The translations under genes were made by a program, and so were the position numbers. This document shows positions 10,116 through 30,224 of a stretch of DNA of 64,000 nucleotides, one piece after another. The stretch's first letter is position 1; each line of letters opens with the position of its first letter. The notes beneath the pieces were generated by a model. It was not told the DNA's origin, did no database searches, and worked only from the letters and a program-made list of their open reading frames with translations. The DNA lies in the NCBI GenBank assembly GCA_965247525.1, contig OZ252015.1, positions 1,759,485 through 1,823,484 of the forward strand. The letters run 5' to 3'. This DNA is from Hyphomicrobiales bacterium (GTDB lineage Bacteria; Pseudomonadota; Alphaproteobacteria; Rhizobiales; UBA4765).

Positions 10116-10772
10116 TTATTGCAGCATTTGTGACAGGTTGGACAGTTTGTCGGACGTGATCAGCAACGCCGCCATTGTCAGCAGCACGCCGACAGCCAAC
10201 GCAAAGCCGCGCCGAAAGCGCGCATCTTCAGCGCGTTTTTTCAAAGCCGCGCCGCCAAAGCCATAGCTCAGCATCGCAATGCCATCGAGCGTAAACACGC
10301 CCGCCGCCGACATTAACAGCTGCGGGACGATTGGTTTTGTCACGTTGATGAAAGGCGGCAGCACGGCGGTGAAAAACAACAGCGCTTTCGGATTGGTGAT
10401 CTGCACGATAAAGCCGTCAACAAACGCCGAGCCGCGCGTCGATTTGATTTTCTGCAGCGGATCGATTTTTTTCGAGAACGCCATTTTGAATTGCTGAAAA
10501 GCGAGCCACAAAATATACAGCGCACCGGCAAACCCGAGAAAATAGAAAAAACGCGGGAAGGCAGTAACAAGTGCACCAAGGCCAAATGCCGCGCCAATGA
10601 ACCAGCCAAGCGTGCCCGTGTTCAACCCGGCGACACCCAATGCGGCCGCGCGCTTGCCGCGCTCCATGCCAAGCGCGATTGCAAACAGATTGGCAGGTCC
10701 AGGTGCAAAAGCCATCGCAGCCATGACGCCAAGAAACGGAATAAAGCGTGAAGGATCAATGGGGAGGGGCAT
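10116..10772 (-). CDS. LysE/RhtB-family amino-acid exporter
   Basis: A 218-aa protein with about 6 TM segments. The N-terminal motif is FAPGPANLFAIALGMERGKRAA. Confidence 0.8.
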   Translation of the reverse strand: MPLPIDPSRFIPFLGVMAAMAFAPGPANLFAIALGMERGKRAAALGVAGLNTGTLGWFIGAAFGLGALVTAFPRFFYFLGFAGALYILWLAFQQFKMAFSKKIDPLQKIKSTRGSAFVDGFIVQITNPKALLFFTAVLPPFINVTKPIVPQLLMSAAGVFTLDGIAMLSYGFGGAALKKRAEDARFRRGFALAVGVLLTMAALLITSDKLSNLSQMLQ

Positions 10773-10774
10773 GT

Positions 10775-11884
10775 TTAACGGCCTATGATTTTATCATATC
10801 CATAGGCAAAAAGCCGATCACCGGCAATGCCTCCTGCAGCGCCGCCAATAAATCCGCCCAAAATGTTTTTTGCGAATGAGGGTTTTCCAAGCCGCATAAC
10901 CGTATAAACAAAACCAAGTGCGCCGATGGCTCTGCCAGAAAAACGAACAGTTTCGCGGCCAATCGGAAAATGTGTCGGCGAGTTGTTTCGATCTGACGTA
11001 AGGCAACGATCTAAATCTTGGATAAGGTAATATCCCGCTGCCAATGCAGCAACACCTCCAACGACATAATTCGATCGAACAGATTTTCCGACCTTTTGTG
11101 CGCGTGATGAGATTTGAACAAGATTGTTTTTGACCGTTGTAAGAATTTCATGCTCGCTCGCAAACCTCATAAGATCGTTGGTTTTTTCAACATAGGGTAC
11201 AATTTGATTGAGACGAGTATTTCTCTCAATAAGTTTCAGCGCCGTTTCATTGTTCGACTGTAAATTGCGAAGCTTTATTTTGTTAATTGTACCAATATCC
11301 GAAATAATATTTTCTCTCATTCCTTTAAATATTTTTGCAATCTCGCTCTGACGGGCTATAACTTGTTTTTTCATTATAGAATGGGTTATTTCTGCTTTAG
11401 GCAACACATCTTTCGCAATGGTTTCCATCTCGATTTTGGTCTCAGCTATTTTTTGATCGAGCAAACTTATGCGTCTGACAGCCGCATTCTTAAAAAATGA
11501 CAGATTTTCCTGACTGGCCATTTCTTTTTGCACATTGGCAAAAGACTTTAGGCCAACTTCAAGATTGACGCGTTCAATTTTTGCTGCAATTTTTAGTTTG
11601 GACAAAGGCTTTGTTGACTTAACTGGCGTATCGCTATCTTGAATCAAAGATGATAAATTTACGCTGTCTTCAAAAACGGCGTTATGAAGTGAAATGCGGG
11701 ATTTGACGGGTTCAAAAATATCGCGTGTTTTCGTGAGTGATTTTTGAAAATAACGCTTTTTTTCGCGTTGAATGCCAAAAGACAGTCCCATCAATGCAAC
11801 AGGGCTGAGTGGCAGAAAATCGAGCGGTCGATCTTTTTGCTCAACGTTCAATGACGACGTCTGAAGTGCCAAAGTGGTTTTCAT
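10775..11884 (-). CDS. hypothetical coiled-coil protein with C-terminal glycine-zipper hydrophobic segments, AT-rich
   Basis: The start is set at the ATG at 11884 (MKTTLALQTSSLNVEQ); the ORF-track start at 11896 is a TTG. The middle is K/E/I/N-rich. The C-terminus carries VVGGVAALAAGYYL and ILGGFIGGAAGGIAGD. I recognise no family. Confidence 0.5.
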   Translation of the reverse strand: MKTTLALQTSSLNVEQKDRPLDFLPLSPVALMGLSFGIQREKKRYFQKSLTKTRDIFEPVKSRISLHNAVFEDSVNLSSLIQDSDTPVKSTKPLSKLKIAAKIERVNLEVGLKSFANVQKEMASQENLSFFKNAAVRRISLLDQKIAETKIEMETIAKDVLPKAEITHSIMKKQVIARQSEIAKIFKGMRENIISDIGTINKIKLRNLQSNNETALKLIERNTRLNQIVPYVEKTNDLMRFASEHEILTTVKNNLVQISSRAQKVGKSVRSNYVVGGVAALAAGYYLIQDLDRCLTSDRNNSPTHFPIGRETVRFSGRAIGALGFVYTVMRLGKPSFAKNILGGFIGGAAGGIAGDRLFAYGYDKIIGR

Positions 11885-11973
11885 AAAATAATCCAAAGCT
11901 GATATACAATATATATGTCAGCCATATTTTTTTATTCTGGAAAGAGCAAGTCCTAAGATCTGAAATGACCGTT

Positions 11974-14094: not shown

Positions 14095-14250
14095 TTAACT
14101 CTGTTTTTCCCAAGGCGCCCTTCGCCAAGCTCAGGGCATTCGGGTCACAAAAAGCGTCACAGGCGCTTTTTGCCCGGCTTTCACCGAGACGCCCTCATAG
14201 GCAAATTCTGCCGAGTTCATGGTTAAAGGAGAGTTAAGAAGATGAGAAAG

Positions 14251-15618
14251 TTACGCCACTTCGGAGCGGTTTTGCCCTGACTCTGGAATATCAATGCCGA
14301 TGGCTGAGTATTCATTGAGCTTGTTGCGCAAGGTGCGAATGGAAATGCCAAGAATATTGGCGGCATGCGTGCGGTTGCCAAGGCAATGGTCAAGCGTATC
14401 GAGGATTAAATCGCGCTCCACATCCGCAACCGTGCGGCCGACAAGCGCGCGCGTAACGGCTTCCGCCGTTGCTGCTGCGGTTTCGGCAGGGCCTTGCGGC
14501 ACTTTAACATTGAGCGTTGCCCCGTCGGGCGACAGGATGGCGTCAGCGCCGATTTCAATGCCGTTCGCCAGCAGAACGGCGCGGTGCATGGTGTTTTCCA
14601 ATTCGCGCACATTGCCCGGCCACGGCGCTGCAAGCAGCGCGCCGCGCGCGTCTTTTGAAAGCTCACGCACGGGAATGCTGTTTTGCGCCGAATATTTTTT
14701 GATGAAATGTTCGGCCATCGCCAGAATGTCGTTCGGGCGCTCACGCAATGGCGGAATACGCAAATTCATGACGTTCAGGCGAAACAGCAGATCTTCCCGG
14801 AACGTACCTTTTTTGACCTCTTCCGACAGATTGCGGTTGGAGGTTGCAAGAATACGGATATTGACGGGCACAGGCTTTGAGCCGCCGACACGGTCAATCA
14901 CGCGCTCCTGAAGCGCACGCAAAAGCTTGGCCTGCAGGCGCACATCCATTTCCGAAATTTCGTCGAGCAGAAGCGTGCCGCCATCGGCCTCTTCAAACTT
15001 GCCGATACGGCGGGCGATTGCGCCGGTGAACGCGCCTTTTTCGTGGCCGAACAATTCTGATTCAAGAAGCGCTTCCGGCATCGCCGCGCAATTGATGGCA
15101 ATAAATGGTTTGGAAGCGCGCTGTGATTTTTGGTGGAGAAAGCGCGCAAGCACTTCCTTGCCGGTTCCGCTTTCGCCCGTTATCAGGATTGAGGCTTCCG
15201 ATGCGGCCACCTGTTCGGCAAGGCGGACGACGCGCATCATGGCTTCGTCTTTGGCGATAAAGTCGAGACTGTCGCGCGCGACGGCGGCAAGAATGGCGGC
15301 AATCAGTTCCGCGTCCGGAGGCAGCGGAATATATTCTTTCGCGCCGGCTTCGATGGCGGCGACAGCGGCCTTGGCGTTGGATTCAACCCCGCAGGCAACA
15401 ACCGGAACATGGATTTTTTCAAGATTGAGCTGCTTGATGAGATCGACAATGCTCAATGACACATCAATCATCACAAGATCGGCGCCGCGACCTGAGCGCA
15501 AATGGCTCATCGCCATATCGACAGTCTCGGCATTTGTGACCTTGGCGCCTTGCATATGGGCAAGACGGGTGGCCTCTCCAAGCTGGCCTTTCAGCGTGCC
15601 GACAATCATTAAGCGCAT
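14251..15618 (-). CDS. flbD: sigma-54-dependent flagellar transcription activator FlbD
   Basis: MRLMIVGTLKGQLGEATRLAHMQGAKV is a FlbD-type atypical receiver. The AAA+ core has GESGTGKE and GAFTG. A C-terminal Fis-type HTH is present. The gene is last in the fliF operon, as in Caulobacter. Confidence 0.85.
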   Translation of the reverse strand: MRLMIVGTLKGQLGEATRLAHMQGAKVTNAETVDMAMSHLRSGRGADLVMIDVSLSIVDLIKQLNLEKIHVPVVACGVESNAKAAVAAIEAGAKEYIPLPPDAELIAAILAAVARDSLDFIAKDEAMMRVVRLAEQVAASEASILITGESGTGKEVLARFLHQKSQRASKPFIAINCAAMPEALLESELFGHEKGAFTGAIARRIGKFEEADGGTLLLDEISEMDVRLQAKLLRALQERVIDRVGGSKPVPVNIRILATSNRNLSEEVKKGTFREDLLFRLNVMNLRIPPLRERPNDILAMAEHFIKKYSAQNSIPVRELSKDARGALLAAPWPGNVRELENTMHRAVLLANGIEIGADAILSPDGATLNVKVPQGPAETAAATAEAVTRALVGRTVADVERDLILDTLDHCLGNRTHAANILGISIRTLRNKLNEYSAIGIDIPESGQNRSEVA

Positions 15619-15637
15619 AATTTAAAATCCCTAAAGT

Positions 15638-15985
15638 CTAGTCTTTATCGGCTTTAATGATCTCTGTCATCGTTACGCCGAGCTTATTTTCGACAAGCAC
15701 AACTTCCCCGCGTGCCACAAGCCGGTTGTTCACATAAATATCAATGGCTTCACCCACTTTGCGGTCAAGCTCGAGAACCGAACCAACACCAAGTTTCAGC
15801 AATTGCCCCACTTCCATCCGTGCACGGCCAAGGATCGCCGAGACGTTGACGGGCACATCGAAGACCGCCTCAAGCTCGTTGGCGGTGCGTGTGGTTGGTT
15901 CATTGCCAAAGCCGGGATTGGCGGCAGGCGGCAGATTGTCGCCGCCTGACTTGTCCATGTTTTGCAATGGGAAATTCTCGGTCAT
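15638..15985 (-). CDS. fliN: flagellar C-ring protein FliN
   Basis: The SpoA domain reads VPVNVSAILGRARMEVGQLLKLGVGSVLELDRKVGEAIDIYVNNRLVARGEVVLVENKLGVTM. Confidence 0.85.
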   Translation of the reverse strand: MTENFPLQNMDKSGGDNLPPAANPGFGNEPTTRTANELEAVFDVPVNVSAILGRARMEVGQLLKLGVGSVLELDRKVGEAIDIYVNNRLVARGEVVLVENKLGVTMTEIIKADKD

Positions 15986-16608
15986 AAAGGCTCCTTCTGA
16001 GCGTCATCGTCGGTCAAGATGCCGGCTCGTTTGTCGAGAAAGCGCGTGATCGCGTCTTCAATTTTTGCGGTGATTTCACTTTGGCTGCGTTCGAACCCGC
16101 CATCGGCCCATTCAATCTTGCAATCACCGGGGCGTTTGTCGGGATCGCCAAGAACAATCAGGCGGCCTTCAATGCCGCGCTCATAGGTCAGTTTTTTCAA
16201 ATGTTGTTCAACGGTTGCAACGCTGTCAGGATGAACATGAAAAACGATGTGCGGGCATTTGCGCAGCGAATCGAGGCATTGCGACGCCATTGCCGCAATC
16301 GCTGCGGAAGGTTCGGCATCCAGCAAATGGCCGGCCAATGTTTTAGCAATCTGGACGGCGAGCGTAATGGCTTCGCGCTCAATGGCGGCGCGCTGGGTGT
16401 CAAGATTTTCAATCAGCGAATGCGTCAGCCTGCTCATTGTGTTGGCCAGCAGCGAATCCATTTCCTTCATTCCTGCGCTATAGCCGCGCTGCTCTGCAAC
16501 AGGCACAAGATCTTTCAGCTCGGCGATTTCAGCTTCAAGCTTTTTAACTTCGCTGCCTTCAACACCCGAGAACTCGTTCGAAATTATAAATTTTGCAGGG
16601 TGTGTCAT
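15982..16608 (-). CDS. fliH: FliH/FlbE-like flagellar export protein
   Basis: A 208-aa protein between fliG and fliN, with 4-nt overlaps on both sides. It has a coiled-coil N-half and a FliH-like C-half. The call rests mainly on position. Confidence 0.6.
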   Translation of the reverse strand: MTHPAKFIISNEFSGVEGSEVKKLEAEIAELKDLVPVAEQRGYSAGMKEMDSLLANTMSRLTHSLIENLDTQRAAIEREAITLAVQIAKTLAGHLLDAEPSAAIAAMASQCLDSLRKCPHIVFHVHPDSVATVEQHLKKLTYERGIEGRLIVLGDPDKRPGDCKIEWADGGFERSQSEITAKIEDAITRFLDKRAGILTDDDAQKEPL

Positions 16609-17648
16609 TAGTAGATCAACTCATCATCGCCGCCGCGCGTTTTGGCAATAATAATTTCGCCCCGCGCTGCCATGTCCTTTGCCACATTGACCATCAGCGA
16701 TTGTGCTTCGTCAACATCTTTAAGGCGCACGGGCCCAAGCGAACCCATATCGTCTTTCATGTTCTGGGCCGCGCGTGCCGACATGTTGGAAAAGAAGAAA
16801 TCGCGGATGGTTTCGTTTGCGCCTTTGAGCGCAATCGCAAGTTTGTCTTTCTCAACGCCGCGAAGAAGTGTCTGAATGCTGCCGCTGTCAAGTTTGCCCA
16901 GATCTTCAAAGGTGAACATCAGCGACTTGATTTTTTCGGCAGCCTCGCGTGAGCGGTGCTCCAGCGCCGTCATGAAACGCGCTTCGGTCTGGCGGTCAAA
17001 ACCAATGAAAATTTCAGCCATCGCTTGATGTGCATCGCGCCGTGAGGTCGTTGCGAGATTTGACATGAACTCGCCGCGAAGGGTCTGTTCGACCCGCTCC
17101 AGAACGTCCTTTTGTACGGCTTCCATGCGCAGCATGCGCGCGACCACTTCCATCGCGAAGTCTTCCGGAAAGATGGCAAGAACGCGGGCGGCATGGTCAG
17201 GGCGAATTTTTGACAAAACGACCGCCGCTGTCTGCGGATATTCGTTTTTCAAATAGGTTGCGAGGACGTCTTCCTGAACGTTTGAAAGTTTTTCCCACAT
17301 ATTGCGGCCTGCAGGCCCGCGGATTTCTTCCATGATCGTGCCGACACGGTCTTGCGGCAAAAAGCGCTGCAGAAGTTTTTCGGTTGAATCGAAATTGCCC
17401 ATCAGCGCACCGGCATCGCCCATGCGTGAGATAAACGAAAAGAAAACCTCTTCCATCGCGCCGCTGTCGACAGCGCCAAGATGTGACATCGTCGATGAAA
17501 TGTCTTTGACTTCGTCTTCGCTCAAAGCCTTCCACACCTCGGTTCCGTTTTCGGGGCCGAGTGCAAGGAGAAGAAGGGCGGCGCGCTCAATGCCGGACAT
17601 GGATTTGCGGGGGCGTGCGGGAGATTGGGTCTGTGCTGAACTGGCCAT
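16608..17648 (-). CDS. fliG: flagellar rotor protein FliG
   Basis: It has the typical FliG architecture, with [18 protein letters not shown] and the C-terminal torque helix region. It lies directly after fliF. Confidence 0.9.
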
Positions 17649-19288
17649 TACGCTGCTTTCTCATTCATCCAGGTGCGAATGACGGCGGCGGTTTCATTTG
17701 GGTTGTTACGCACCAGCTCACCGACTTTTTCGACGCTTTCTTTACGCAGAGATCCGTTGGCCATTGCGTTGTCGAGTGCTTTCGATGTCGTTGAGTCAGC
17801 AACCGACTGAGTGACGTTAAGTGTTTGGGCAATCGCGGCCTGCTGCTCATTTGGCGAAGCATTGGCCAGTGAAGGCTGTGCATTGACAGTTGCGCCGGCA
17901 GTTGGTGCCAGAACCGACTTGATCAGTGGCCGCACGCCGAACAGCAGCATCAGCAGACCGAGGATGAAGATAACGGCCGTTTCGGCGATACGGTAATAAT
18001 CTTCCATGCCGAGTTTTGGAATCATCGATGCGGGCTCTTCAGCCGCCAACTCGATGGCTGGCGCATCAGCAAAGCGCAGATTGACAATTTCCACTTTGTC
18101 GCCGCGCTTTTCATCATAGCCAATGGCGGAGCGAACAAGATCGCCGATGCGTTTGAGCTCATCATCAGCGCGCGGTGTGTAATTCATTTTGTCGCCGTCT
18201 TTGGCATAAGTGCCGTCGACGAGAACAGCAACAGAGATGCGTTTCACGCGGCCAGCTTCAAGAATTTCCGTGCGCGAGGTGCGTGAAATTTCATAGTTGA
18301 CGGTTTCATTTGTTTTTTCATTGCTGTCGCCACCCGCGCCAGCTCCGCCGGGAGGAACAATGCCGCCTGGAATTTCATTGGCAACACTGACCTGATTTGT
18401 GCCGCCTTTGCCGCTTGTCGATTTTTCTTCATTGGTCTGCGTAGAGCGGACAACCCGGCTCTCAGGGTCAAAGAGATCTTGCGTCTGCGTCACGCGGTTC
18501 CAGTCAAGCTCGGCAGAGACCTGCACTTTGGAGCGGCCAGCGCCAACAACGCGGTTGAGAATATCTTCGATTTGCGATTTGAAACGCGCTTCCTGTCCTT
18601 GCGCTTTTTCTTCCATCGCGCCCGCCATCACTTCATTCTCATCGCCGCGGCCTGTGGCAAGAAGATGGCCTTCTTCATCGACGATCGAAACGGAGGCCGG
18701 TTTCATACCGGGAACGGCTGAAGCGACCAGATGCTGAATGGCTTTGACCTGCGCGCTCTCTAAACTGCCACGCAGTTTCAAAACGATGGAGGCAGTTGTC
18801 TCCTGCTTGTCTTTTGAAAACAGCTGGCGCTCGGGCATAACAAGATGAACGCGTGCGGAACTGACTTTGTCGATCTCGACGATGGAGCGGGACAATTCGC
18901 CCTCCATGGCGCGCAGGTGGTTGATGTTCTGGACGAAGCTGGTTGTGCCCAGTGCTTCTGATTTGTCAAAAATTTCATAGCCAACGCCGCCGCCTTTCGG
19001 CAGGCCCTGTTCGGCAAGGCTCATGCGAAGTTTGGCAACTTGGTCGCTAGGGACCTGAACGACAGTGCCGTCAAACTTCAATTCATAAGGGACACCGGCG
19101 CGCTCTAACTCTTTGACGACCTGCGACGAGTCGCGCAGCGACATGTCGGAGAACAGCGTGACGAGGTGAGGACTGTTCCAGCGCATCATGATAAAGGCAA
19201 AAAACCCGATCATCATCGCTGTCACCGCGATCATCGCTGCGATGCGCCCGGCACCGAATGTTTTTATGAAAGCAACAAAACCGTTCAC
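17648..19288 (-). CDS. fliF: flagellar MS-ring protein FliF
   Basis: A 546-aa protein with N- and C-terminal TM segments. It has a YscJ/FliF-family periplasmic region (..[18 protein letters not shown]..). Confidence 0.9.
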
Positions 19289-19469
19289 GCTGGCAACCTT
19301 TGTAACTGATAGGTTTTCAAAAAATTCTAAAAGCCTTAGGCAAAATTTGCCTAGTTTATGGTAAAGATCGGGTTAACGATTTGCCCGAACTGGTTTTTTT
19401 GCTCGAATTTTTGCTAGACATCCCCGCTCTGAGGGCTGTATTGGTTAATTTTTGTTAAGGATTAGACCA

Positions 19470-20198
19470 ATGTCAGATTTAAAAATGATCGCTTCACGCC
19501 CGTTTTTTGCAGATTATGCGAGCCGCAAGGCCGCAATCGACGCCAACAAAATCCAGAGCCTGCTTCAGGACTACAACAAGGCGTTTTATCAAAAAAACAT
19601 TGCCGACTATCAAAGCCGCGGTCTTACGTTCAATGCAAAAATCATTGAGGGCGGCGCATTCGACGCCCTGACAAGCGATTTGGGCCCGGCTTGGGCAGCC
19701 CTTGCGGCCTCAATGTCATCGTCGGGTAAAATCTCCACCGAGGCGCTGGCCGCCGGTTTGGTCAAGCAGCTTGATACGGGCAATCCGAACGGAAAGATCG
19801 ATCTGTCTGAAGTGCTGGCATGGAATGCCGCGCAAAAAGACGCATTTTTTGAAACGAGTCTGCAGGACAAAGCCTTCAATCTCGTCGCCAGCCCAAAGGG
19901 ATATATCACGCAAAGCTCGCTGGAAAATTTCTTCAAGACCTATGCAGGTCAGGACGGTGTGTTCAGCGTCGACAAGATCAAGGCGCTTGCGGCCGACGAC
20001 ACGGATGAAGGCAGAAAAGCGGTCTTTAAGGCCCTTGCAGATACGCTAAAGCCAAAAGACAGCGCTTCTGGCGCAAGTGTCGCAAGGCTTGCGGGCCGGT
20101 TCATGACCAAGAATGATGCGCAAGGCCCGGATGATGCCGACCAGATCGTCGATTATCATGAGATTGACGGCGTGTTCGATACATCGACGCAGCGCTAG
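19470..20198 (+). CDS. hypothetical protein, 242 aa
   Basis: The start is set at the ATG at 19470 (AAGGA 9 nt upstream). The sequence is A/K/D/S-rich with no TM segment. A large terminator hairpin follows. Confidence 0.5.
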   Translation: MSDLKMIASRPFFADYASRKAAIDANKIQSLLQDYNKAFYQKNIADYQSRGLTFNAKIIEGGAFDALTSDLGPAWAALAASMSSSGKISTEALAAGLVKQLDTGNPNGKIDLSEVLAWNAAQKDAFFETSLQDKAFNLVASPKGYITQSSLENFFKTYAGQDGVFSVDKIKALAADDTDEGRKAVFKALADTLKPKDSASGASVARLAGRFMTKNDAQGPDDADQIVDYHEIDGVFDTSTQR

Positions 20199-20204
20199 AC
20201 CTAC

Positions 20205-20270
20205 AAAAAAACGCCCCTTGAATTGTGCCGTTTGCAAAAAGGCAAAGGCACAAAGGGGCGTTTTTAATTT
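20205..20270. terminator. bidirectional terminator (nested hairpin)
   Basis: aaaaaaACGCCCCTT (20211-20219) pairs with AAGGGGCGTttttt (20253-20261), with an inner TGTGCC/GGCACA stem. It sits between convergent stops. Confidence 0.55.
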
Positions 20271-20280
20271 TTAGGGTGTT

Positions 20281-20559
20281 TTAAGCGCGGTAGTGCTGAA
20301 TACGCGTTGTGCGCAGGCCAGCAAGGCCATGCTTGTCAATTGAGGCCTGCCAGGACAGGATTTCATCGACCGTCAGAGTATAGCGTTTGCAAGCATCTTC
20401 GATGGACAACAGTCCACCACGAATGGCCGCAACCACCTCCGCTTTTCTGCGGATGACCCAGCGCCTTGTATCTGAGGGCGGAAGGTCGGCAACCGTTAGA
20501 GGGCTGCCATCTGGTCCGATGACGTATTTAACTCGTGGGCGTAACATTTGCTCGGTCAT
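20281..20559 (-). CDS. sciP: SciP-like small CtrA-inhibitory transcription factor (DUF1153)
   Basis: A 92-aa protein. RRWVIRRKAEVVAAIRGGLLSIEDACKRYTLTVDEILSWQ matches the DUF1153/SciP HTH family. Confidence 0.7.
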   Translation of the reverse strand: MTEQMLRPRVKYVIGPDGSPLTVADLPPSDTRRWVIRRKAEVVAAIRGGLLSIEDACKRYTLTVDEILSWQASIDKHGLAGLRTTRIQHYRA

Positions 20560-20658
20560 TTTACTCTCACACTGCTGACCAATTCTTCCTCCTCAAGATA
20601 AACCGTTCAGGTTAAGGAATTCCGACCAAAGTGTTGAGAAAACATTATTTTTGACGTT

Positions 20659-21390
20659 TTATATCAATCCAGCTGACGTTTGGGTCGCTGGCGGGGTGAC
20701 AACCGAAGTGATGTCTTGCATCGACAGGCGGCGCGAGCCAACCAGGATAACGGGCGAAGCGCCTGACAGGTCAACACCTGTGACAATACCTCTTGTCGAG
20801 CTGTCAACCGCGACCTGGCTGCCGCTGGCATCTTTTGCGTCGATGGTCAGCGTGTATTTGCCATCTTTAAAGGCGATATTGTTTTTATCCTTGCCATTCC
20901 AGCTGTAAGACTGGGAACCCGGTGTCAGGGTAAAGTTTTCTTCCGACACCGTCTGACCGGCCTCGTTCCGGATTGTCGCTTTCGCGCTCAAAACCGAGCC
21001 TGAAGGGCTTGTCAGGTTCCAGACGGCATTGCCGTTTGCAAGTTCTGTGGTCTTGCCGCTTGATGTCACCTGCTTGTCGATAAAGGACAGCGCGCCGAAA
21101 TTGCTGTTGCTGGCAAGCTGCGCAATAATGGCGTCAAGGCTTTGGTTGGATTTAAGCTGCTGCTCAAGCCCTGTAAACTTTGTCAGCTGGTCGGCAAACT
21201 TGTCGGGGTCGGTTGGCGCGCTGGGGTCCTGATTTTTCAACTGTGTCGTCAGCAATTTTAAAAATGTGCTGAAGGTTTCATCGACCGATCCTGCACCAAA
21301 CGATGATTTGGCCGATGTGCTGGCAGAGACAACATTGCTTTTGCTGGCCTGCGCGATATTTGCGTATGATGCTTCTGTCACTGATGTCAT
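20659..21390 (-). CDS. flgD: flagellar hook capping/assembly protein FlgD
   Basis: The FlgD N-terminal signature is FLKLLTTQLKNQDPSAPTDPDKFADQLTKFTGLEQ. The C-domain is FLgD-Ig-like. Confidence 0.85.
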   Translation of the reverse strand: MTSVTEASYANIAQASKSNVVSASTSAKSSFGAGSVDETFSTFLKLLTTQLKNQDPSAPTDPDKFADQLTKFTGLEQQLKSNQSLDAIIAQLASNSNFGALSFIDKQVTSSGKTTELANGNAVWNLTSPSGSVLSAKATIRNEAGQTVSEENFTLTPGSQSYSWNGKDKNNIAFKDGKYTLTIDAKDASGSQVAVDSSTRGIVTGVDLSGASPVILVGSRRLSMQDITSVVTPPATQTSAGLI

Positions 21391-21406
21391 TTGTCTCTAC
21401 TCCTGT

Positions 21407-22954
21407 TTACACATGCAGATCGATGCCGCTGCCGCGGCCTTGGGAAAGGCTTGCAACCACCGGGCGCGCGGCCCAGCCGTTCAATTCTTCAACATTGATG
21501 TCCATTGTGCCGCGATGCGTTGTTTTGGTGCGCTGATCTTGCCCCTGCTGGCTTTGGCCGGACTGGTCTTTCAGCGAAAACTGCATCGCGCCTGAATCTG
21601 TTTTCAAACCGCTATTGCTGAGCGCCCGTTCTAGATTGGGCTGGTCGCGGCGCAGCTGGTCAAGTGTTTCTGGTCGTTCCACGACAAGATGCGTGGCGAC
21701 CTTTCCGTGCTTGTCGACAGAGACTGTGACATCAATCCCGCCAAGCTCGGCGGGATCAAGGCGGATCTGAAACTGTTTTTCACCACGATGCGCGGACGCT
21801 GCAATTTCGAAAGGTACGCGCGCAAGGGCAAGCGGCGCGCGGGTCTGTGCATCAATCGTTTGCGCGACAACCGTTGGCTGCTGCGTTTGCGTTTGCGTTG
21901 TCAGAACGGGTGGGGCTGGTGCTTTTGCTGACTCAGCTGCAACTGTTGCTGTCGATGCAGCGTTGACAGTCTGATCGGCGTCAGATTGTTGCGTGCTGGT
22001 ATCAGCCTGCGGCGTGTCTGAGGTGACAGTGATGTCAGATTTTGGCTGAACCGGCGTTGCCTGGGTGTCGGCCTTGGCATTTGCGTTTGTGGCTGGCGCT
22101 TGCGCAACGACTGTGGCCGTTTCGTCCTTGCCTTTTGCCAAGGTTATTTTTTTATCGACGGCTGAAACGTTTACCGCCTGCAGGCGTGTCGTCTGCGCGT
22201 CTGTTGCAGCGGGTTTCAAGGTTTCAACGAGCGCCGCGCTTAAATCTGCCGCTGCTGTTGTTTTGTCGGTCGTGGCCGCTTTTTGTGTTGCGGCAGCATC
22301 GGGTGTTGGTTTTGCTGCGGCATCAGCCGTTGCGTCAACTAAAGCTGTGGCATCAGCCACACTGGCCGTATCGCTTGTTCCAGCTGCGGCAGTAGCCGCC
22401 TGTTGTGATTGATCGCCGGACGCCTGTGCCGTGGCGCTGGCGTCCGTGCCAGCTTTTGCAAGATCTGCGTTTAGTTTGGCAGCTGCGGATGTGTTGGCCG
22501 CGGCAAGAAGGGCAGCGTCAGGTGTTGCGGATGCTGCATCTGTTCCTGCGGCTGCTGCATCTGTTCCTGCGGCTGTTTCAATCTGAGCTGTGACAAGAAG
22601 CGGCGTCCCGATAAGAGGTGTCGCGGCTGGTGTCGGCAGAGCCTGCGCTGCTGTAATGACAGTCGATGCGGTCTTGTCGTCATCGGCGGTTGTTGTGTCG
22701 CTTTGATCATCGTCATCGGATTTTGTTTTACCGGATCCGGTCGATGCGTCCTTGCTGGCAGCCTTGTCGGTTGGCGCGTTGGTGTCACTTGTCTGTGTTG
22801 GCGCCTCATTCGCGCTGTCAGCGGCTTGGCTGTCCTGCAAATGGTCGTCAAATGCTGCGCCATCGGCACCGCGTTGTTCGACAGGTTCGCGCTCGCGTTT
22901 GATGATGCTTGCGGGAATTTTGAGAAGATCTGTAATAAGACCAATGCCTGACAC
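21407..22954 (-). CDS. fliK: flagellar hook-length control protein FliK
   Basis: The middle is A/T/D/Q-rich and low-complexity. The C-terminal Flg_hook domain reads FQIRLDPAELGGIDVTVSVDKHGKVATHLVVERPETLDQL. I place the start at the GTG at 22954 (AAAGGA 7 nt upstream, sigma-54 promoter about 30 nt upstream). The ORF-track start at 23098 would overlap mnmA. Confidence 0.75.
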   Translation of the reverse strand: MSGIGLITDLLKIPASIIKREREPVEQRGADGAAFDDHLQDSQAADSANEAPTQTSDTNAPTDKAASKDASTGSGKTKSDDDDQSDTTTADDDKTASTVITAAQALPTPAATPLIGTPLLVTAQIETAAGTDAAAAGTDAASATPDAALLAAANTSAAAKLNADLAKAGTDASATAQASGDQSQQAATAAAGTSDTASVADATALVDATADAAAKPTPDAAATQKAATTDKTTAAADLSAALVETLKPAATDAQTTRLQAVNVSAVDKKITLAKGKDETATVVAQAPATNANAKADTQATPVQPKSDITVTSDTPQADTSTQQSDADQTVNAASTATVAAESAKAPAPPVLTTQTQTQQPTVVAQTIDAQTRAPLALARVPFEIAASAHRGEKQFQIRLDPAELGGIDVTVSVDKHGKVATHLVVERPETLDQLRRDQPNLERALSNSGLKTDSGAMQFSLKDQSGQSQQGQDQRTKTTHRGTMDINVEELNGWAARPVVASLSQGRGSGIDLHV

Positions 22955-22981
22955 GTCGTAATCCTTTGTTTCCTGTAGAAA

Positions 22982-22997
22982 TGCAGGAGGCGTGCCA
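22982..22997 (-). promoter_or_regulatory. sigma-54 (-24/-12) promoter for fliK-flgD
   Basis: The minus strand reads TGGCAC-GCCTC-CTGCA, which satisfies GG-N10-GC with one mismatch to TGGCAC-N5-TTGC. It lies about 28 nt upstream of the GTG at 22954, with an AT-rich stretch upstream. FlbD is encoded in the same window. Confidence 0.55.
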
Positions 22998-23127
22998 AAT
23001 AAAAATCTTTTATATATCAATGGCTTAAGATAATATAAAGCATACCCGCCAAGGATCAGAGGTCTGGTTTGGCCCTTACAAGGGCAAGTCTTGCCCATTG
23101 CCGCGCCGCATGAGAAAGACTTGGGCC

Positions 23128-26879: not shown

Positions 26880-27884
26880 ATGGGTGCTTCATCCGCCATG
26901 GCCATGTTAGATAAGCCTTTGGCTTACTTGCAGAATTTGGGACAACCTGGCGCTGGCGTTGTGGAAGAATCGTCTTCCCCGCCGGCCTTCGTGAAAGTGC
27001 GCGTTGAGGTCAAGGGTTTCCCCCCTTCCGCAAAGGCGCTGGAACCCGGCAATTATACTCTCGGCTCTTCGCCTGAATGCGATTTGATTATTCCCGAAGC
27101 GCCGGCCGATGAAATTGCGCTTTTGCATGTGCGCGGCGGCACCGAGCCGCATGAGCTTGTGTCGATGTCGCGCGGCATCATGCTGGGCGGCAAACCCTTC
27201 AACCCGCAAACGCGTGTCAGCCTGCTTGCTGAAACCGTACTTGAAGTGGGCCCCGCAAAAATCACATTCATCCCGCGCGTCAATAAAATGCAGCGCGCCG
27301 GACAAATGCTTGCCAAGGTCAATCCCGGCGCATCGTTCAAAACGCCGGTGACGATGCTTTTAATTGCTGCCGCTTTGGGTCTTGTGGCGTGGTACTCATC
27401 AGGCAGCGCGCCCACACCCATCAGAAGTTTTAATTTCAACCTGCCCGAGCGCCCTTCAGGTTTGCAAAACACAGCTTCAACCGCGCCGATCACAAATGCC
27501 AAAGACACATCGGACGAATTGAACCGGCTTTTTAATGCGGCCGATCTTTCAAGCCAGATTGAAGCCAAGACCGATGGCACGCAGGTGACCGTTCAAGGCG
27601 CGATCAGCATGGGCGCTGAACCACGCATGAACGAAATCATGCGGCTTGTCGGCACACGCTCAAATGTGCCGATCAAATCAATGGTACGACCCGATTCCTC
27701 GACATTGATTGAAGCGATTGCCGGCGTGTCGCTGCAGCCGTCGCGCTATATTATTTTGACCGATGGCGAGCGCTACCGTGTCGGCGATCTGATGCCAAAC
27801 GGCTGGAGCGTTGAATCGATCGACCAGCAACAGGTTATTGTCACGCGGGATGGCCTGCGCGAAACACTCGATCTCGGGAAGTAG
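26880..27884 (+). CDS. sctD: SctD-like T3SS inner-ring protein (FHA-like N-domain, one TM, periplasmic domain)
   Basis: The FHA-like core is YTLGSSPECDLIIPEAPADEIALLHV. There is a single TM (VTMLLIAAALGLVAWY) and a roughly 170-aa periplasmic C-domain. The gene sits immediately upstream of sctV (10 nt gap), like y4yQ-rhcV in rhizobia. Confidence 0.55.
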   Translation: MGASSAMAMLDKPLAYLQNLGQPGAGVVEESSSPPAFVKVRVEVKGFPPSAKALEPGNYTLGSSPECDLIIPEAPADEIALLHVRGGTEPHELVSMSRGIMLGGKPFNPQTRVSLLAETVLEVGPAKITFIPRVNKMQRAGQMLAKVNPGASFKTPVTMLLIAAALGLVAWYSSGSAPTPIRSFNFNLPERPSGLQNTASTAPITNAKDTSDELNRLFNAADLSSQIEAKTDGTQVTVQGAISMGAEPRMNEIMRLVGTRSNVPIKSMVRPDSSTLIEAIAGVSLQPSRYIILTDGERYRVGDLMPNGWSVESIDQQQVIVTRDGLRETLDLGK

Positions 27885-27893
27885 GGTAGTTCG

Positions 27894-30044
27894 ATGGAGC
27901 GTTTCGGCATTCGGGTGATGAACCTGCTGGCAAAGCGGCAGGATCTTTTCCTGCTGACTTTCATGTTCCTGTTTATTTTGATGTTTATCATCCCGATCCC
28001 GCCTCTGGTGATTGACGGTCTGCTGTCCGTCAATATCGGCCTGACCGTTCTTGTTCTGGTGGTCTCAACTTACTTAAAAGGCCCTGCCGACCTTTCGACA
28101 TTTCCGGCGCTTATTCTTTTCACAACCGTGTTTCGTCTGGCGCTGACGGTTGCTTCGGCACGCCTTATCCTGACACACGGTTATGCGGGCGATATCATCC
28201 GCACCTTCGGCCAGTTCGTTGTCGGCGGCAACGTGATGATCGGCCTTGTGGTGTTTTTCATTATCGCGATCGTGCAGTTTATCGTCGTCGTCAAAGGCGC
28301 AGAACGTATCGCCGAGGTTGGCGCGCGTTTTACGCTCGACGCTTTGCCCGGCAAGCAGATGAGCATCGACAGCGATCTGCGCAATGGCGATATCACAAAA
28401 GAAGAGGCCAAGCGCCGACGCTCGCGCATTGAGCGTGAAAGTTCCTTCTTCGGTGCAATGGACGGTTCTTTACGCTTCGTCAAAGGCGACGCGATTGCGA
28501 GTTTTATCGTTATTTTCGTCAACCTGATCGGCGGCCTGCTTGTGGGTATGTTGTCGCGCGGTCTGAGTTTCAACGACGCGATCCACACCTTCACCATTCT
28601 GACCGTAGGCGAAGGCCTTGTGGCGCAGATTCCGGCCATGTTCATCGCTATTTCGGCAGGTATCGTTTCAACGCGTATCGTCACCGATGAATCACGAAAT
28701 CTGGGAAGTGATATTGCCCGCGAGTTGTCGGCGGAAGTTAAAGCGCTGTATGTGGCGGCGGGTATTCTCGCCATTATCGGCCTGTTGCCGGGCTTTCCGC
28801 ATTTCATCTTTTTCGGTCTTGCGGCATTGATTGTCGGCATGGCCTTTTTGGTGGCACGCGGGCGCTTTCGTGAAAAAGAAGCAGACGAGGCCGAACAGCA
28901 ATCGCAAGCCGACGATGCGCTGCGCGCGCAAATGGAAGACAGTGACGAAGAAGGCGGGGAGCAGGTTGAGCGCGGCGGTGACCGCAACAATCCAAGCCTG
29001 CCTGAAGCCGAAGAAGGCGATATTTTTATCATTGCCCTTCACCCCGATCTCTGGGCGCCATGGCGCGATGCGGCCATGCCGCGCCTGATGCGCCATGCCA
29101 TGACACGCACGCGGCAGGAAATGGGCCTTATGCTTCCCGAATTTACATTCCGCGAAATGTCGGCTTTGCCTGAAAACGGTTATCAAATCCTTGTCGAAGA
29201 CGTTCCCGTTTTCCGCGGGCAGTTTGATGTCGAAAAATTTTACAGCGTGATGTCGCCTGCCGATGCCGAGCGCCTCGGTCTCTCGTCGCAATTTGTGCAA
29301 ACATCGCAAATTGCCAGCCTCGTCGAATTGACGGAGGCACAAAGTCAAAGCGTCAGCGATGCCAAATTCGTTGTCTATGATGCCGCTGACCGCGTGGTGC
29401 AGGAGGCTGATGCTGTCGCGCGCCGCAATTCGGGCCGCGCCTTTGGCATCAATGAAGCCGCCAACTGGCTTGATGGCTTAGAAGGTCGTTACCAGCGGCT
29501 TGTTGGCGAAGTCAAAGCCAATGTGCCGATGCTGAAACTGGTTGAGATCGGTCGCCGCCTTCTTGATGAAAATGTGCCGATGGCACAGCCGCGCGTCATG
29601 CTGGAATCGCTGCTTCAGGCCTCTGCCATGGATCTTGATGCGACCGACACGGTTGAACTGGTGCGCCGCGCTTTGGCACGGCAGATCATCCATAGCTACA
29701 CCAATATCAATGGCGAAATCGACGCTATCTTGATTGAGCCATCCGCTGAAAGCATCATCCATGATATCGTGACGCAGGCGCCAGCAGACCTTGCCGCAAC
29801 GAAAACAGGCGAGCAGCTGTCGGGACTGACTTTTGCCCGCAGCATTGCTGAAGTAAACACACAAGCCTTGAGCACTGGCATGCGCCCTGTGCTTTTGACC
29901 TCGGCCCCTATTCGCCCGATGGCACGCATGATGCTGGTGCGCAACGGCGTGCAAATGCCGGTCATTTCCTTTCAGGAAATCGGCAATGATGTGCAGGTGC
30001 GGCCGTTGCGGGCGATGGGCCCGAACGATCTTGGGCTCGACTAG
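27894..30044 (+). CDS. sctV: T3SS export gate protein SctV (RhcV/HrcV; FlhA family)
   Basis: ARFTLDALPGKQMSIDSDL, FVKGDAIAS and TVGEGLVAQIPAMFIA are present. It is clearly paralogous to, but distinct from, the flhA at 11974-14094. It has an acidic linker (EADEAEQQSQADD..DSDEEGGE). Confidence 0.9.
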   Translation: MERFGIRVMNLLAKRQDLFLLTFMFLFILMFIIPIPPLVIDGLLSVNIGLTVLVLVVSTYLKGPADLSTFPALILFTTVFRLALTVASARLILTHGYAGDIIRTFGQFVVGGNVMIGLVVFFIIAIVQFIVVVKGAERIAEVGARFTLDALPGKQMSIDSDLRNGDITKEEAKRRRSRIERESSFFGAMDGSLRFVKGDAIASFIVIFVNLIGGLLVGMLSRGLSFNDAIHTFTILTVGEGLVAQIPAMFIAISAGIVSTRIVTDESRNLGSDIARELSAEVKALYVAAGILAIIGLLPGFPHFIFFGLAALIVGMAFLVARGRFREKEADEAEQQSQADDALRAQMEDSDEEGGEQVERGGDRNNPSLPEAEEGDIFIIALHPDLWAPWRDAAMPRLMRHAMTRTRQEMGLMLPEFTFREMSALPENGYQILVEDVPVFRGQFDVEKFYSVMSPADAERLGLSSQFVQTSQIASLVELTEAQSQSVSDAKFVVYDAADRVVQEADAVARRNSGRAFGINEAANWLDGLEGRYQRLVGEVKANVPMLKLVEIGRRLLDENVPMAQPRVMLESLLQASAMDLDATDTVELVRRALARQIIHSYTNINGEIDAILIEPSAESIIHDIVTQAPADLAATKTGEQLSGLTFARSIAEVNTQALSTGMRPVLLTSAPIRPMARMMLVRNGVQMPVISFQEIGNDVQVRPLRAMGPNDLGLD

Positions 30045-30057
30045 TTACGTTTTTTCT

Positions 30058-30222
30058 GCCCGAGCTTCAGCGAATGGCAGCATTCAAAATGCCCGAGCTT
30101 TAGCGAATGGCAGCATTCAAAATGCCCGAGCTTTAGCGAATGGCAGCATTCAAAATGCCCGAGCTTCAGCGAATGGCAGCATTCAAAATGCCCGAGCTTC
30201 AGCGAATGGCAGCATTCAACAA
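30058..30222. repeat. tandem array of 5 x 33 bp (GCCCGAGCTT(C/T)AGCGAATGGCAGCATTCAAAAT)
   Basis: Unit starts are at 30058, 30091, 30124, 30157 and 30190. Only a C/T variant and the last-unit tail differ. The array fills almost the whole 180-nt gap between the convergent sctV and sctU stops. Confidence 0.9.
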
Positions 30223-30224
30223 AA

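What the first reader, a model, noticed from the sequence alone, without database searches (positions are those of the whole stretch)
30058..30222. A ~33-bp repeat family forms arrays at gene ends around the T3SS and also occurs in-frame inside a CDS
Related copies occur at four places:
1. 5 x 33 bp almost filling the gap between the convergent sctV and sctU stops (30058-30222).
2. Two copies in the opposite orientation, starting 11 nt after the secretin-N gene stop (44302-44368).
3. One core per unit of the 87-bp array (50261-50632).
4. Four full and two partial degenerate cores inside the secretin-N CDS (43473-43664), translated as AIPQASG / AVRAERSG.

The shared core is approximately GCC(A/G)TTCGC, a 4-7 nt spacer, then G(C/T)TCGGGC, preceded by TTTCATTGC/TTTGAATGC. 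The unit length is 33 nt (11 codons), so arrays stay in frame when they land in genes.

It does not form a good hairpin, so it is not a classic REP or terminator. It has no spacers, so it is not CRISPR.
Basis: seen in the sequence. Interest (0 to 1): 0.6.

Follow-up and report, generated by a model that had tools for sequence, protein, structure and literature searches.

The report
REP-like hairpin repeat at gene ends
A short (about 33-base) weakly hairpin-forming DNA repeat, specific to this bacterial lineage, has recently been inserted and multiplied head-to-tail at the stop codons of three genes, and it also sits in frame inside a secretion-system gene; this is a new example of the "selfish" small repeats (REP-like elements) long known in bacteria, not a new kind of system.

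Summary
A 5 x 33-bp array (98% identical units) fills the sctV/sctU gap. Related cores (NNCC-ATTCG-loop-CTCGG-GNN) lie just after the secretin-N gene stop, once per unit of an 87-bp array, and four times in frame inside the secretin-N gene. A motif shared by the three intergenic loci is expected 0.01 times per window.

A model built from loci 1 and 2 alone recovers the in-gene copies. Locus 3 is linked only through a relative's in-gene copy.

An 82%-identical relative has none of the three intergenic arrays. There the convergent genes abut or overlap, and only one in-gene copy is present. A 96%-identical strain has one extra in-gene unit. Each intergenic array is flanked by a duplicated copy of the upstream gene's last 9-26 nt, stop codon included.

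The best reading is a young, lineage-specific, untagged REP-like repeat amplified by slippage. The way it spreads is unknown.

Interest is moderate to low: a new variant of a known kind.

The parts
30057..30221 (-). Five head-to-tail 33-bp units, TTTTGAATGCTGCCATTCGCTGAAGCTCGGGCA, read in the sense of sctU (locus 1)
   Evidence: TRF reports 33 bp x 4.9 copies at 98%; unit table; covariance-model hits at 38-44 bits
30045..30053 (.). TTACGTTTT, a duplicated copy of the sctU 3' end (stop codon included) on the far side of the array. Its partner is TTACATTTT at 30225-30233
   Evidence: 8 of 9 bases identical at exactly the two array borders, P about 7e-4 at a fixed offset and 9e-3 with sliding. 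In relative L023 the site is ...GACTGA|TTACATCTTCAC with no gap
30225..30233 (.). TTACATTTT, the original sctU end (stop TAA on the - strand) and partner of the 30045-30053 duplication
27894..30044 (+). sctV (FHIPEP family; type III secretion export gate), the convergent neighbour of the array
   Evidence: Pfam PF00771 at 4e-181; TIGR01399 hrcV at 1.7e-190
30225..31271 (-). sctU. Its stop codon lies immediately upstream of the array in the element's sense orientation
   Evidence: Pfam PF01312; TIGR01404 SctU
44292..44369 (+). Locus 2: an 11-nt partial unit directly after the stop codon, then units at 44303-44336 (34 nt, degenerate) and 44337-44369 (33 nt, GTTTCATTGCGCCATTCGCTAACGCTCGGGCGC)
   Evidence: Present and more uniform in the 96% strain L024. 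Absent in the 82% relative L026
44281..44291 (+). GCGCAAGCTAG, the end of the secretin-N gene including its stop. It is repeated as GCGCAAGATAA at 44381-44391, just beyond the array
   Evidence: 9 of 11 bases identical, null P about 0.009
44381..44391 (+). GCGCAAGATAA, the second copy of the duplicated gene end at locus 2
43471..43663 (+). Locus 4: in-frame copies inside the secretin-N gene. Full cores lie at 43495-43513, 43561-43582, 43600-43618 and 43642-43663. Half cores lie at 43471-43481 and 43537-43547. They encode AIPQASG / AVRAERSG
   Evidence: L024 has one extra 36-nt (12-codon) insertion, i.e. one more core. L026 has a single core; distant orthologues have none
43188..44291 (+). Host gene: signal peptide, Pro-rich and repeat-bearing linker, then an SctC N-terminal domain (residues 218-351)
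   Evidence: TIGR02516 positions 3-136, E 1e-11. The AlphaFold model has pLDDT 31-45 and no secondary structure over residues 98-224, but the whole model is low-confidence
50260..50635 (+). Locus 3: 4.3 units of 87 bp. Each unit holds the last 26 nt of the DUF1499 gene including its stop, about 26 nt of local downstream sequence, and one roughly 35-nt element TTATTGTTGTCACCATTCGGCTTCGCCTCGGGTGG
   Evidence: TRF; cores; unit table. In L026 the two genes overlap by 4 bp and there is no array. L024 has the array
49503..50285 (+). DUF1499 gene. Its last 26 nt and its stop lie inside the first 87-bp unit
   Evidence: Pfam PF07386
50629..51555 (-). Metallo-beta-lactamase-fold gene. Its stop (CTA at 50629-31) lies in the last partial unit, which keeps the ancestral GAGCGCTAG
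   Evidence: Pfam PF00753

Best explanation
This is a young, lineage-specific family of short interspersed hairpin repeats of the REP type, but without the usual GTAG or CGTC tag.

The unit is about 33 nt. It has a T-rich leader (TTTTGAATGC, GTTTCATTGC or TTATTGTTGTC) followed by an interrupted hairpin NNGCC-AUUC-(2-4 bp stem, 3-5 nt loop)-UCG-GGCNN.

Shown:
- After the split from an 82%-identical relative, and for loci 2 and 3 before the split from a 96%-identical strain (which does not cover locus 1), copies were inserted at three gene 3' ends where the relative has abutting or overlapping convergent stop codons or unrelated sequence.
- Each insertion is bracketed by a duplicated copy of the upstream gene's last 9-26 nt including the stop, so no gene lost its end.
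- An older copy sits in frame in a non-conserved linker of the secretin-N (SctC N-domain) protein, predicted without structure in a low-confidence model. It has grown to 4-5 cores and differs in number between strains.

Inferred:
- The copies were then multiplied head-to-tail by slipped-strand or unequal recombination, either as the bare unit (33 bp x 5) or together with flanking DNA (87 bp x 4.3).
- The element is essentially selfish or neutral DNA that survives where insertion is harmless: just beyond stop codons and in protein linkers.
- Spread occurs either through an unidentified trans-acting enzyme or through hairpin-promoted template switching.
- Once transcribed, the hairpins may incidentally buffer mRNA 3' ends or separate convergent transcription units, as proposed for REPs.
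For: - Family and significance.
- Hairpin with covariation. Orthologous in-CDS copies differ by a compensatory pair, L026 CGG...GCC against the window's CCG...GCG, one change non-synonymous and one synonymous.
- Insertion polarity: in L023 the sctV and sctU stops are adjacent. In L026 DUF1499 and the MBL gene overlap by 4 bp and there are no repeats after the secretin-N gene. In about 36 kb of that relative the model finds only the in-CDS copy.
- Copy-number change between 96% strains.
- Flanking duplications at all three intergenic loci.
- Distant orthologues of 244-269 aa lack the repeat-bearing linker. The linker has low pLDDT and no secondary structure.
- Other relatives carry different small insertions at the same sctU/sctV junction (palindromes, or a hicB gene), so it is a permissive site.
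- Published REP biology matches. REPs lie within 20 bp of the 3' ends of convergent ORFs, may supply stop codons, are reiterated in tandem together with flanking DNA, and form intragenic clusters encoding up to 82 aa (PMC3733652).
Against: - Only 64 kb of the 2.04-Mb source genome was available, plus about 18 kb of a close strain. A genome-wide interspersed distribution, the hallmark of REP families, is therefore untested.
- The core was not found beyond chance singletons in 596 Gb of reference genomes, in JGI metagenomes or in viral contigs.
- The hairpin is thermodynamically weak, with z-scores between +0.8 and -1.7.
- I derived the tested structure from these same sequences, and many copies are tandem duplicates rather than independent lineages.
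- There is no GTAG or CGTC tag. Only head-to-tail arrangement is seen, which is rare for REPs.
- No transposase was identified among the window genes I scanned; the window's ORFs were not scanned exhaustively.
- Variable-length target duplications (9, 11, 26 nt or more) do not fit either RAYT/IS200-type or ordinary MITE transposition.
- Locus 1 is seen in a single assembly only.
Confidence: 0.55

Rival explanations
1. Local, enzyme-free origin. The in-frame sequence in the secretin-N gene is the progenitor. During replication or repair, hairpin-promoted template switching copied units from it into nearby gene ends. Each event re-copied a few to a few dozen bases of the target, which explains the variable flanking duplications. 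Slippage then expanded the copies. Under this reading the family is confined to this neighbourhood and is not a genome-wide mobile element.
For: - The oldest detectable copy is the in-CDS one, the only copy in the 82% relative.
- The locus-3 core is closest to that ancestral-type in-CDS copy.
- All four loci lie within 20.6 kb, with none in the other 43 kb.
- The flanking duplications have variable length, 9, 11 and 26 nt, which is typical of templated insertions and not of transposases.
- At locus 2 the array starts mid-unit at a GCTA(A/G) microhomology with the gene's stop.
- The extra in-CDS unit in L024 carries a locus-2-type leader, GTTTCAT, which suggests exchange between neighbouring arrays.
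Against: - The clustering is not significant (P about 0.10).
- The rest of the genome is unseen.
- Locus 1 and 2 units carry a distinct loop and leader that are not present in any in-CDS copy, so an unseen donor elsewhere is equally possible.
Confidence: 0.25
2. A selected cis-acting element of the type III secretion region. The hairpin arrays would act as RNA 3'-end stabilisers, as insulators between convergent transcription units, or as binding-site arrays for a DNA- or RNA-binding protein, and selection would have fixed them at T3SS gene ends.
For: - The internal-loop bases AUUC/UCG are conserved and the stems covary, which suggests recognition of a folded strand.
- Every copy lies in the sense orientation immediately 3' of a stop codon.
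- In relatives the sctU/sctV junction often carries palindromes that could be bidirectional terminators.
Against: - The 82% relative runs the same T3SS cluster with zero-gap or overlapping convergent genes and no such element.
- Locus 3 lies between metabolic genes (DUF1499 and MBL-fold), not T3SS genes.
- There is no U-tract terminator signature, no Rfam family and no rhizobial tts box.
- The folding energy is not better than that of shuffled sequence.
Confidence: 0.12
3. Independent minisatellites whose similarity is coincidental, with the in-CDS repeats being an ordinary protein-level repeat.
For: - The model built from loci 1 and 2 does not detect the 87-bp cores (E = 5).
- The in-CDS periods differ from 33.
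Against: - The shared motif is expected 0.01 times per window but occurs at three loci.
- The leave-out model recovers the in-CDS copies.
- The motif taken from L026 hits only locus 3, with 0.00 expected.
- Similarity extends into the leaders and linkers.
- The common hairpin shows compensatory changes.
Confidence: 0.03

Closest known systems
REP (repetitive extragenic palindromes) and REP clusters/BIMEs, including the GTAG- and CGTC-tagged superfamilies (Di Nocera et al. 2013, PMC3733652)
   Same: - The unit is 20-40 nt and carries a stem-loop.
- It lies within 20 nt of the 3' ends of ORFs, typically between convergent ORFs.
- It can overlap or supply stop codons.
- Clusters are reiterated in tandem together with flanking DNA.
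- There are occasional in-frame intragenic clusters.
- The sequence is lineage-specific.
   Different: - There is no unpaired terminal GTAG or CGTC tag and no CCA tail.
- The stem is an interrupted 5 + 2-4 bp, not a contiguous 8-9 bp.
- Only head-to-tail arrays are seen, whereas head-to-tail dimers are 'negligible' in CGTC REPs and inverted pairs are the rule.
- Target duplications flank the arrays.
- Genome-wide abundance and RAYT association are unknown.
MIRU (mycobacterial interspersed repetitive units), a dispersed minisatellite/VNTR family
   Same: - Short units form head-to-tail arrays at several loci.
- Copy number differs between strains.
- Insertions sit at codon signals of flanking genes in a way that minimises damage (PMC12548453).
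   Different: - MIRUs are 40-100 bp and mycobacterial.
- MIRUs insert at start codons inside operons and carry an ORF translationally coupled to the downstream gene.
- Here the insertions are at stop codons, between convergent genes or after a terminal gene, and no coupled ORF is apparent.
- The sequences are unrelated.
RPE (Rickettsia palindromic elements)
   Same: Palindromic repeats of an alphaproteobacterium that occur both between genes and in frame inside protein-coding genes, adding peptide segments (PMC10969869; PMC3733652).
   Different: - The classic RPEs that insert in frame (RPE-1) are about 100-150 bp and usually single, whereas this unit is 33-42 nt and tandem. The short RPE-4 and RPE-6 are themselves CGTC-tagged REPs, and this element lacks that tag.
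- Only one host gene is seen here.
MITEs
   Same: A non-coding small element flanked by direct duplications of the target.
   Different: - There are no terminal inverted repeats.
- The unit is far below MITE size.
- The duplication length varies (9, 11, 26 nt or more), whereas MITE target duplications have a fixed length.
- No parent IS is seen.

Membership tests
REP (general class) | Unit of 20-40 nt able to form a stem-loop | tested here: met
   The unit is 33 nt. A 5-bp outer stem plus a 2-4-bp inner stem pairs in 92.9% of cells, and 5 of 7 pairs change on both sides. The fold is weak energetically.
REP (general class) | Located mainly downstream of ORFs, close to 3' ends, often between convergent ORFs | tested here: met
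   All three intergenic loci start 0-11 nt after a stop codon. Two of them lie between convergent genes.
REP (general class) | High copy number dispersed around the genome | not testable with these tools
   The source genome (a 2,039,191-bp contig) is not in the searchable DNA collections. Only four loci were found in 64 kb.
GTAG / CGTC-tagged REP superfamilies (PMC3733652) | Unpaired terminal GTAG or CGTC (TGTC/CCTC) tag, contiguous 8-9-bp stem, CCA tail | tested here: not met
   Unit sequences show no terminal tag. A C(G/C)TC motif occurs, but inside the hairpin on the 3' side. The stem is interrupted. The tails vary.
GTAG / CGTC-tagged REP superfamilies (PMC3733652) | Predominantly inverted (head-to-head or tail-to-tail) dimers / REPIN organisation | tested here: not met
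   All copies within each locus are head-to-tail. No inverted repeats of 8 nt or more occur in the locus-1 gap.
REPIN-RAYT system | A cognate Y1 (RAYT) transposase gene in the genome | not testable with these tools
   None was identified among the window genes scanned or in the gene tables of the relatives. The rest of the genome is unseen.
MIRU-type dispersed minisatellite | Head-to-tail arrays of one unit family at several loci, with copy-number differences between strains | tested here: met
   There are four loci. L024 has one extra in-CDS unit. Copy number at loci 2 and 3 is equal in the two strains.
MIRU-type dispersed minisatellite | Insertion at start codons within operons, with a unit ORF translationally coupled to the downstream gene | tested here: not met
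   Insertions are at stop codons, between convergent genes or 314 nt upstream of the next gene.
RPE | In-frame insertion into protein-coding genes, absent from orthologues | tested here: met
   The in-CDS cores are in frame. They are absent from orthologues of 58% identity or less and present once in the 70% orthologue.
RPE | Palindromic element of about 100-150 bp belonging to the Rickettsia families | tested here: not met
   The unit is 33-42 nt. The short RPE-4/RPE-6 are CGTC-tagged REPs, a tag not found here. No direct sequence comparison with RPE consensus sequences was made; no match was found in Rfam or in the plasmid collection.
CRISPR | Repeats separated by unique spacers of similar length | tested here: not met
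   The units are contiguous.
Intrinsic terminator | GC-rich uninterrupted stem followed by a U-tract | tested here: not met
   No terminator-like site was found in the 33-bp units or cores. The only such sites inside the 87-bp array lie on the opposite strand in the duplicated gene-end part, and the total number found is at or below the shuffle expectation.
MITE | Terminal inverted repeats and a fixed-length target-site duplication | tested here: not met
   No inverted repeats were found. Duplications are present but measure 9, 11 and 26 nt.
Rhizobial tts box (TtsI-dependent T3SS promoter element) | Match to GTCAGCTTNTCGAAAGCT | tested here: not met
   There were 0 matches with up to 3 mismatches in the window. 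The consensus was quoted from memory.

The most novel reading that the evidence does not exclude
The element is an active copy-and-paste hairpin repeat with a mechanism not yet described. It would target the last bases of open reading frames and regenerate the stop-codon-bearing gene end as a variable-length duplication. This would let it colonise even zero-gap or overlapping convergent gene pairs without damage, and the same element would build new protein linker repeats when it lands in frame. Alternatively, the flow would run the other way: a coding repeat seeding non-coding arrays.
Probability: 0.12. Interest if true: 0.6.

Novelty: new variant of a known kind. Interest (0 to 1): 0.33.

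Why it matters
If the reading is right, this is a clean and datable natural example. It compares the 82% relative (no intergenic copies), the 96% strain (which already carries loci 2-4) and the window itself. It shows how a small hairpin repeat invades tightly packed convergent gene ends without harming either gene, and how the same DNA becomes a protein linker repeat in a type III secretion component.

The consistent duplication of the stop-bearing gene end, with variable length, is a mechanistic clue. It points to template switching or to an unknown enzyme, and it does not fit RAYT or MITE models. This bears on the open question of how untagged and CGTC-type REPs of Alphaproteobacteria spread without a dedicated transposase.

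Practically, the arrays are candidate VNTR markers for strain typing of this uncultured lineage. They are also a warning for gene callers at these loci.

It does not reveal a new kind of system.

Tried and rejected
- Collection scans. Exact-pattern scans for GCCATTCGCTNANGCTCGGGC in reference genomes (9 loci), JGI metagenomes (13) and viral contigs (0) returned only unrelated singletons without the leader. Several were one conserved coding sequence. Exact look-ups of the window's SctV and SctU gave no contig. Cluster look-ups showed that the source is a 2.04-Mb contig but gave no access to it.\n- L023-encoded protein. I searched translations of the array hoping to find other arrays called as ORFs. 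The query was truncated by my mistake to two + strand frames, and nothing was found. The sense-strand frames remain untested.\n- Known families. Rfam gave nothing at gathering or E-value thresholds. Plasmid collection blastn gave nothing.\n- Regulatory motifs. I looked for a tts box: none. I considered the PIP box and CsrA GGA-loop ideas by eye and dropped them, because only the in-CDS AVRAERSG copies have a GGA loop.\n- DGR, integron attC and iteron/centromere readings. I considered these and dropped them. There is no reverse transcriptase or integrase in the gene tables, the units are too short, and the arrays lie between core genes.\n- Terminator reading. Rejected.\n- IS608-like TTAC targeting. 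TTAC borders loci 1 and 2, but at locus 2 the upstream TTAC lies in conserved coding sequence. I treat it as unproven.\n- Cluster members P0003 and P0004. They looked like SctV fragments at contig ends but are unrelated sequences.\n- Borderline covariance-model hits. L026 12981-13015 and L024 40-114 (17.8 bits each) were read and judged doubtful.
Full report
**What is there**

Tandem Repeats Finder reports a 33-bp unit repeated 4.9 times with 98% matches at 30057-30219. The five units occupy 30057-30221. They almost fill the 180-nt gap between the stop of a FHIPEP/SctV gene (27894-30044, +) and the stop of an SctU gene (30225-31271, -). Read on the minus strand, which is the sense of sctU, the unit is TTTTGAATGCTGCCATTCGCTGAAGCTCGGGCA.

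- **Locus 2.** Two units of the same kind lie on the plus strand at 44303-44369. They are preceded by an 11-nt partial unit that begins directly after the stop of the 43188-44291 gene. That gene matches only the N-terminal 136 positions of the secretin SctC.
- **Locus 3.** An 87-bp x 4.3 array at 50260-50635 carries one core per unit.
- **Locus 4.** Four full and two half cores lie in frame inside the secretin-N gene (43471-43663). They are translated AIPQASG / AVRAERSG.

**Is it one family, and more than chance?**

- The motif CCATTCG-N4-10-CTCGGG has 10 hits at three loci, against 0.01 expected from shuffles.
- A covariance model built from 14 non-identical copies (R1) finds only these four loci in the 64 kb. 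The weakest copy it still detects (the degenerate first locus-2 unit) scores 14.9 bits and background starts at 11.5 bits.
- Those tests use sequences the motif was derived from, so I built a leave-out model from loci 1 and 2 only (R2).
  - Its best non-self hits are the in-CDS copies: 23.0 and 21.7 bits, E about 1e-3. The in-CDS copy of a relative scores 29.1 bits, E 6e-5.
  - The 87-bp cores score only 9.3 bits (E 5).
- Locus 3 is linked through another route. The relative's in-CDS copy is CCATTCGGC-AA-GCCTCGGG. That motif, with 1-4 free loop bases, hits only the four 87-bp cores, with 0.00 expected.
- Similarity also extends outside the core.
  - The in-CDS linker CTCGGGCATGAATGCT resembles the locus-1 junction CTCGGGCATTTTGAATGCT.
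  - An extra in-CDS unit in a close strain begins GTTTCAT, as locus-2 units do.

The family is real. Its members fall into sub-types that differ in inner stem and loop.

**The hairpin**

Minimum-free-energy folds are no better than shuffles (z from +0.8 to -1.7).

The copies nevertheless share one architecture:

- a 5-bp outer stem (UGCC/GGCA, GCGCC/GGCGC, CACC/GGUG, ACGCC/GGCGU);
- a conserved internal loop (A/G)UUC ... UCG;
- a 2-4-bp inner stem with a 3-5-nt loop.

On the 14-sequence alignment, 92.9% of cells pair, against 77% in column shuffles and 29-51% in slid registers. Five of seven pairs show changes on both sides.

One compensatory event separates homologous in-CDS copies. The relative has CGG...GCC and the window has CCG...GCG. 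One of these changes alters the amino acid (R to P) and the other is synonymous. This suggests, on one event, that the constraint acts on the nucleic acid and not on the peptide; replacement of the copy by gene conversion from another family member would give the same pattern.

Two caveats apply. I derived the structure from these same sequences, and tandem copies are not independent.

**Comparative evidence**

The source is a 2.04-Mb contig that the DNA tools cannot reach. Three relatives could be fetched.

- **82%-identical genome (L023/L026).**
  - The sctV and sctU stops are adjacent (GACTGA|TTACAT, gap 0).
  - The DUF1499 and MBL-fold genes overlap by 4 bp.
  - The sequence after the secretin-N stop is unrelated to the repeat.
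  - Across about 36 kb, the only family member is a single in-CDS core.
- **96%-identical strain (L024).** It has loci 2, 3 and 4 (locus 1 is not covered). The in-CDS array has one extra 12-codon unit.
- **More distant orthologues of the secretin-N protein (244-269 aa).** They lack the entire repeat-bearing linker.

The intergenic arrays are therefore insertions younger than the 82% split; loci 2 and 3 are also older than the 96% split, and the age of locus 1 relative to that split is unknown. The in-CDS copy is older and still changing in number.

The sctU/sctV junction is a recurrent landing site. Other relatives carry a 197-bp cluster of unrelated palindromes, a 94-bp palindrome or a hicB gene at that position.

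**Anatomy of the insertions**

Each intergenic array is bracketed by two copies of the upstream gene's end, stop codon included.

| Locus | First copy | Second copy | Match | Null P |
|---|---|---|---|---|
| 1 | AAAATGTAA | AAAACGTAA | 8 of 9, exactly at the borders | about 7e-4 at fixed offset |
| 2 | GCGCAAGCTAG (44281-91) | GCGCAAGATAA (44381-91) | 9 of 11 | about 0.009 |
| 3 | TGCGCCAGAAATTAAACGAGCGATAA | ...GCGCTAG | 24 of 26 | 3e-4 |

At locus 3 the rest of the 87-bp unit resembles the relative's sequence downstream of the DUF1499 stop. The unit is therefore local gene-end DNA plus one roughly 35-nt element, reiterated. The last partial unit keeps the ancestral GAGCGCTAG, which supplies the stop of the convergent MBL gene. 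In every case both neighbouring genes keep intact ends.

**What it most likely is**

Size, hairpin, position within 0-11 nt of stop codons, preference for convergent gene ends, tandem reiteration with flanking DNA and in-frame intragenic clusters are all documented properties of REP-type repeats (PMC3733652).

The family fails the defining features of the tagged superfamilies:

- no terminal GTAG or CGTC tag;
- no contiguous 8-9-bp stem;
- no CCA tail;
- only head-to-tail arrangement.

It is therefore not a member of those superfamilies. It also resembles MIRUs in being a dispersed minisatellite that inserts at codon signals with minimal damage (PMC12548453). It resembles RPEs in being translated in frame (PMC10969869).

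I read it as a young, lineage-specific, untagged REP-like repeat. The insertions, duplications, copy-number change and covariation are shown. Amplification by slippage, tolerance in a linker predicted without structure (pLDDT 31-45 over residues 98-224, in a low-confidence model) and any RNA-level side effect are inferred.

How it spreads is unknown. The variable duplication lengths fit template switching better than RAYT or MITE transposition.

**Rivals**

- **Purely local template-switch origin from the in-CDS copy.** This is the main alternative. It cannot be separated from the preferred reading without the whole genome. The clustering of the four loci is suggestive but not significant (P about 0.10).
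- **A selected T3SS cis-element.** This is unlikely for three reasons.
  - The relative manages with zero-gap junctions.
  - Locus 3 is between metabolic genes.
  - No terminator, Rfam family or tts box is present.
- **Chance similarity.** This is excluded.

**Limits**

- One protein search was wasted on a truncated query.
- Locus 1 is supported by one assembly only.
- The organism is known only as an alphaproteobacterium with a roughly 2-Mb genome. The evidence is its CtrA, an HWE histidine kinase and an Rhc-type T3SS with a Y4YQ domain.

**Verdict**

This is a new variant of a well-known kind of bacterial repeat. It is of moderate to low general interest, with a modest chance (about 0.12) that the stop-end-duplicating insertion reflects an undescribed mechanism.

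Noticed in passing
window 40758-41057 and 41393-41692: A 300-nt stretch is duplicated at 100% identity, 635 bp apart, inside two tandem paralogous genes (40757-41407 and 41392-42033, both on the - strand, no Pfam hit). The region has the lowest G+C of the window (39%). This points to a very recent tandem gene duplication or gene conversion next to the T3SS cluster.
   Followed up: no
window 45754-45908 and 45937-46056: In-frame 54-bp repeats (2.9 copies at 94%, plus diverged copies) lie inside the 1158-aa gene with no family assignment that follows the secretin-N gene. The orthologue in L024 is 1151 aa and the one in L026 is 1144 aa, so this repeat probably also varies.
   Followed up: no
window 61185-61416: Nested 21-, 51- and 72-bp tandem repeats lie inside a 754-aa EF-hand protein gene (60750-63014, -).
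   Followed up: no
L025 15725-15921; L029 15724-15817; L027 10493-10896: The sctU/sctV junction is a hotspot for small insertions in this clade. One relative has a 197-bp cluster of unrelated palindromes, including GGATCCCCGCCTTCGCGGGGATGACGG. Another has a 94-bp long-armed palindrome. A third has a hicB antitoxin-like gene. The 82% relative has a gap of zero.
   Followed up: partly
L007 2914-2934 (Cardiobacteriaceae MAG): A chance exact match to the core sits in AGCGCCATTCGCTAACGCTCGGGCGCTTTTCC. This has the same interrupted hairpin followed by a T-run and looks like a terminator in an unrelated gammaproteobacterium.
   Followed up: no
window 8269-23098 versus 26880-38395: Two type III export systems lie side by side. 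One is a flagellar set (FliI-like ATPase, FlhA, sigma-54 activator, FliF, FlgD, hook-length protein). The other is a non-flagellar Rhc-type T3SS with a split secretin: a Y4YQ-domain gene at 26880-27884, which also weakly matches the C-terminal part of SctD (TIGR02500, E 1.5e-17, below cutoff), and the separate SctC N-domain gene at 43188-44291.
   Followed up: partly
window 52868-54273: A LuxI/LuxR-type autoinducer synthase and receptor pair and two Flp/Fap pilin genes lie just downstream of the 87-bp array. The 82% relative lacks the P450 and LuxI/LuxR genes at this place.
   Followed up: no
L024 40-114 (-) and L026 12981-13015 (+): Two borderline covariance-model hits (17.8 bits each) fall inside coding sequence, for example TTGCGCCATTCCG...CCCCGGGCGC with a large insertion. 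They could be decayed family members or chance matches.
   Followed up: partly
window 30057-30221, + strand: All three reading frames of the 33-bp unit are open on the + strand, apart from the TAG in the two TTTAGCG variant units. A 102-codon ORF (29986-30294) runs through the array, overlapping both gene ends. No protein matching two of these frames exists in the 5.8-billion-cluster protein collection.
   Followed up: partly
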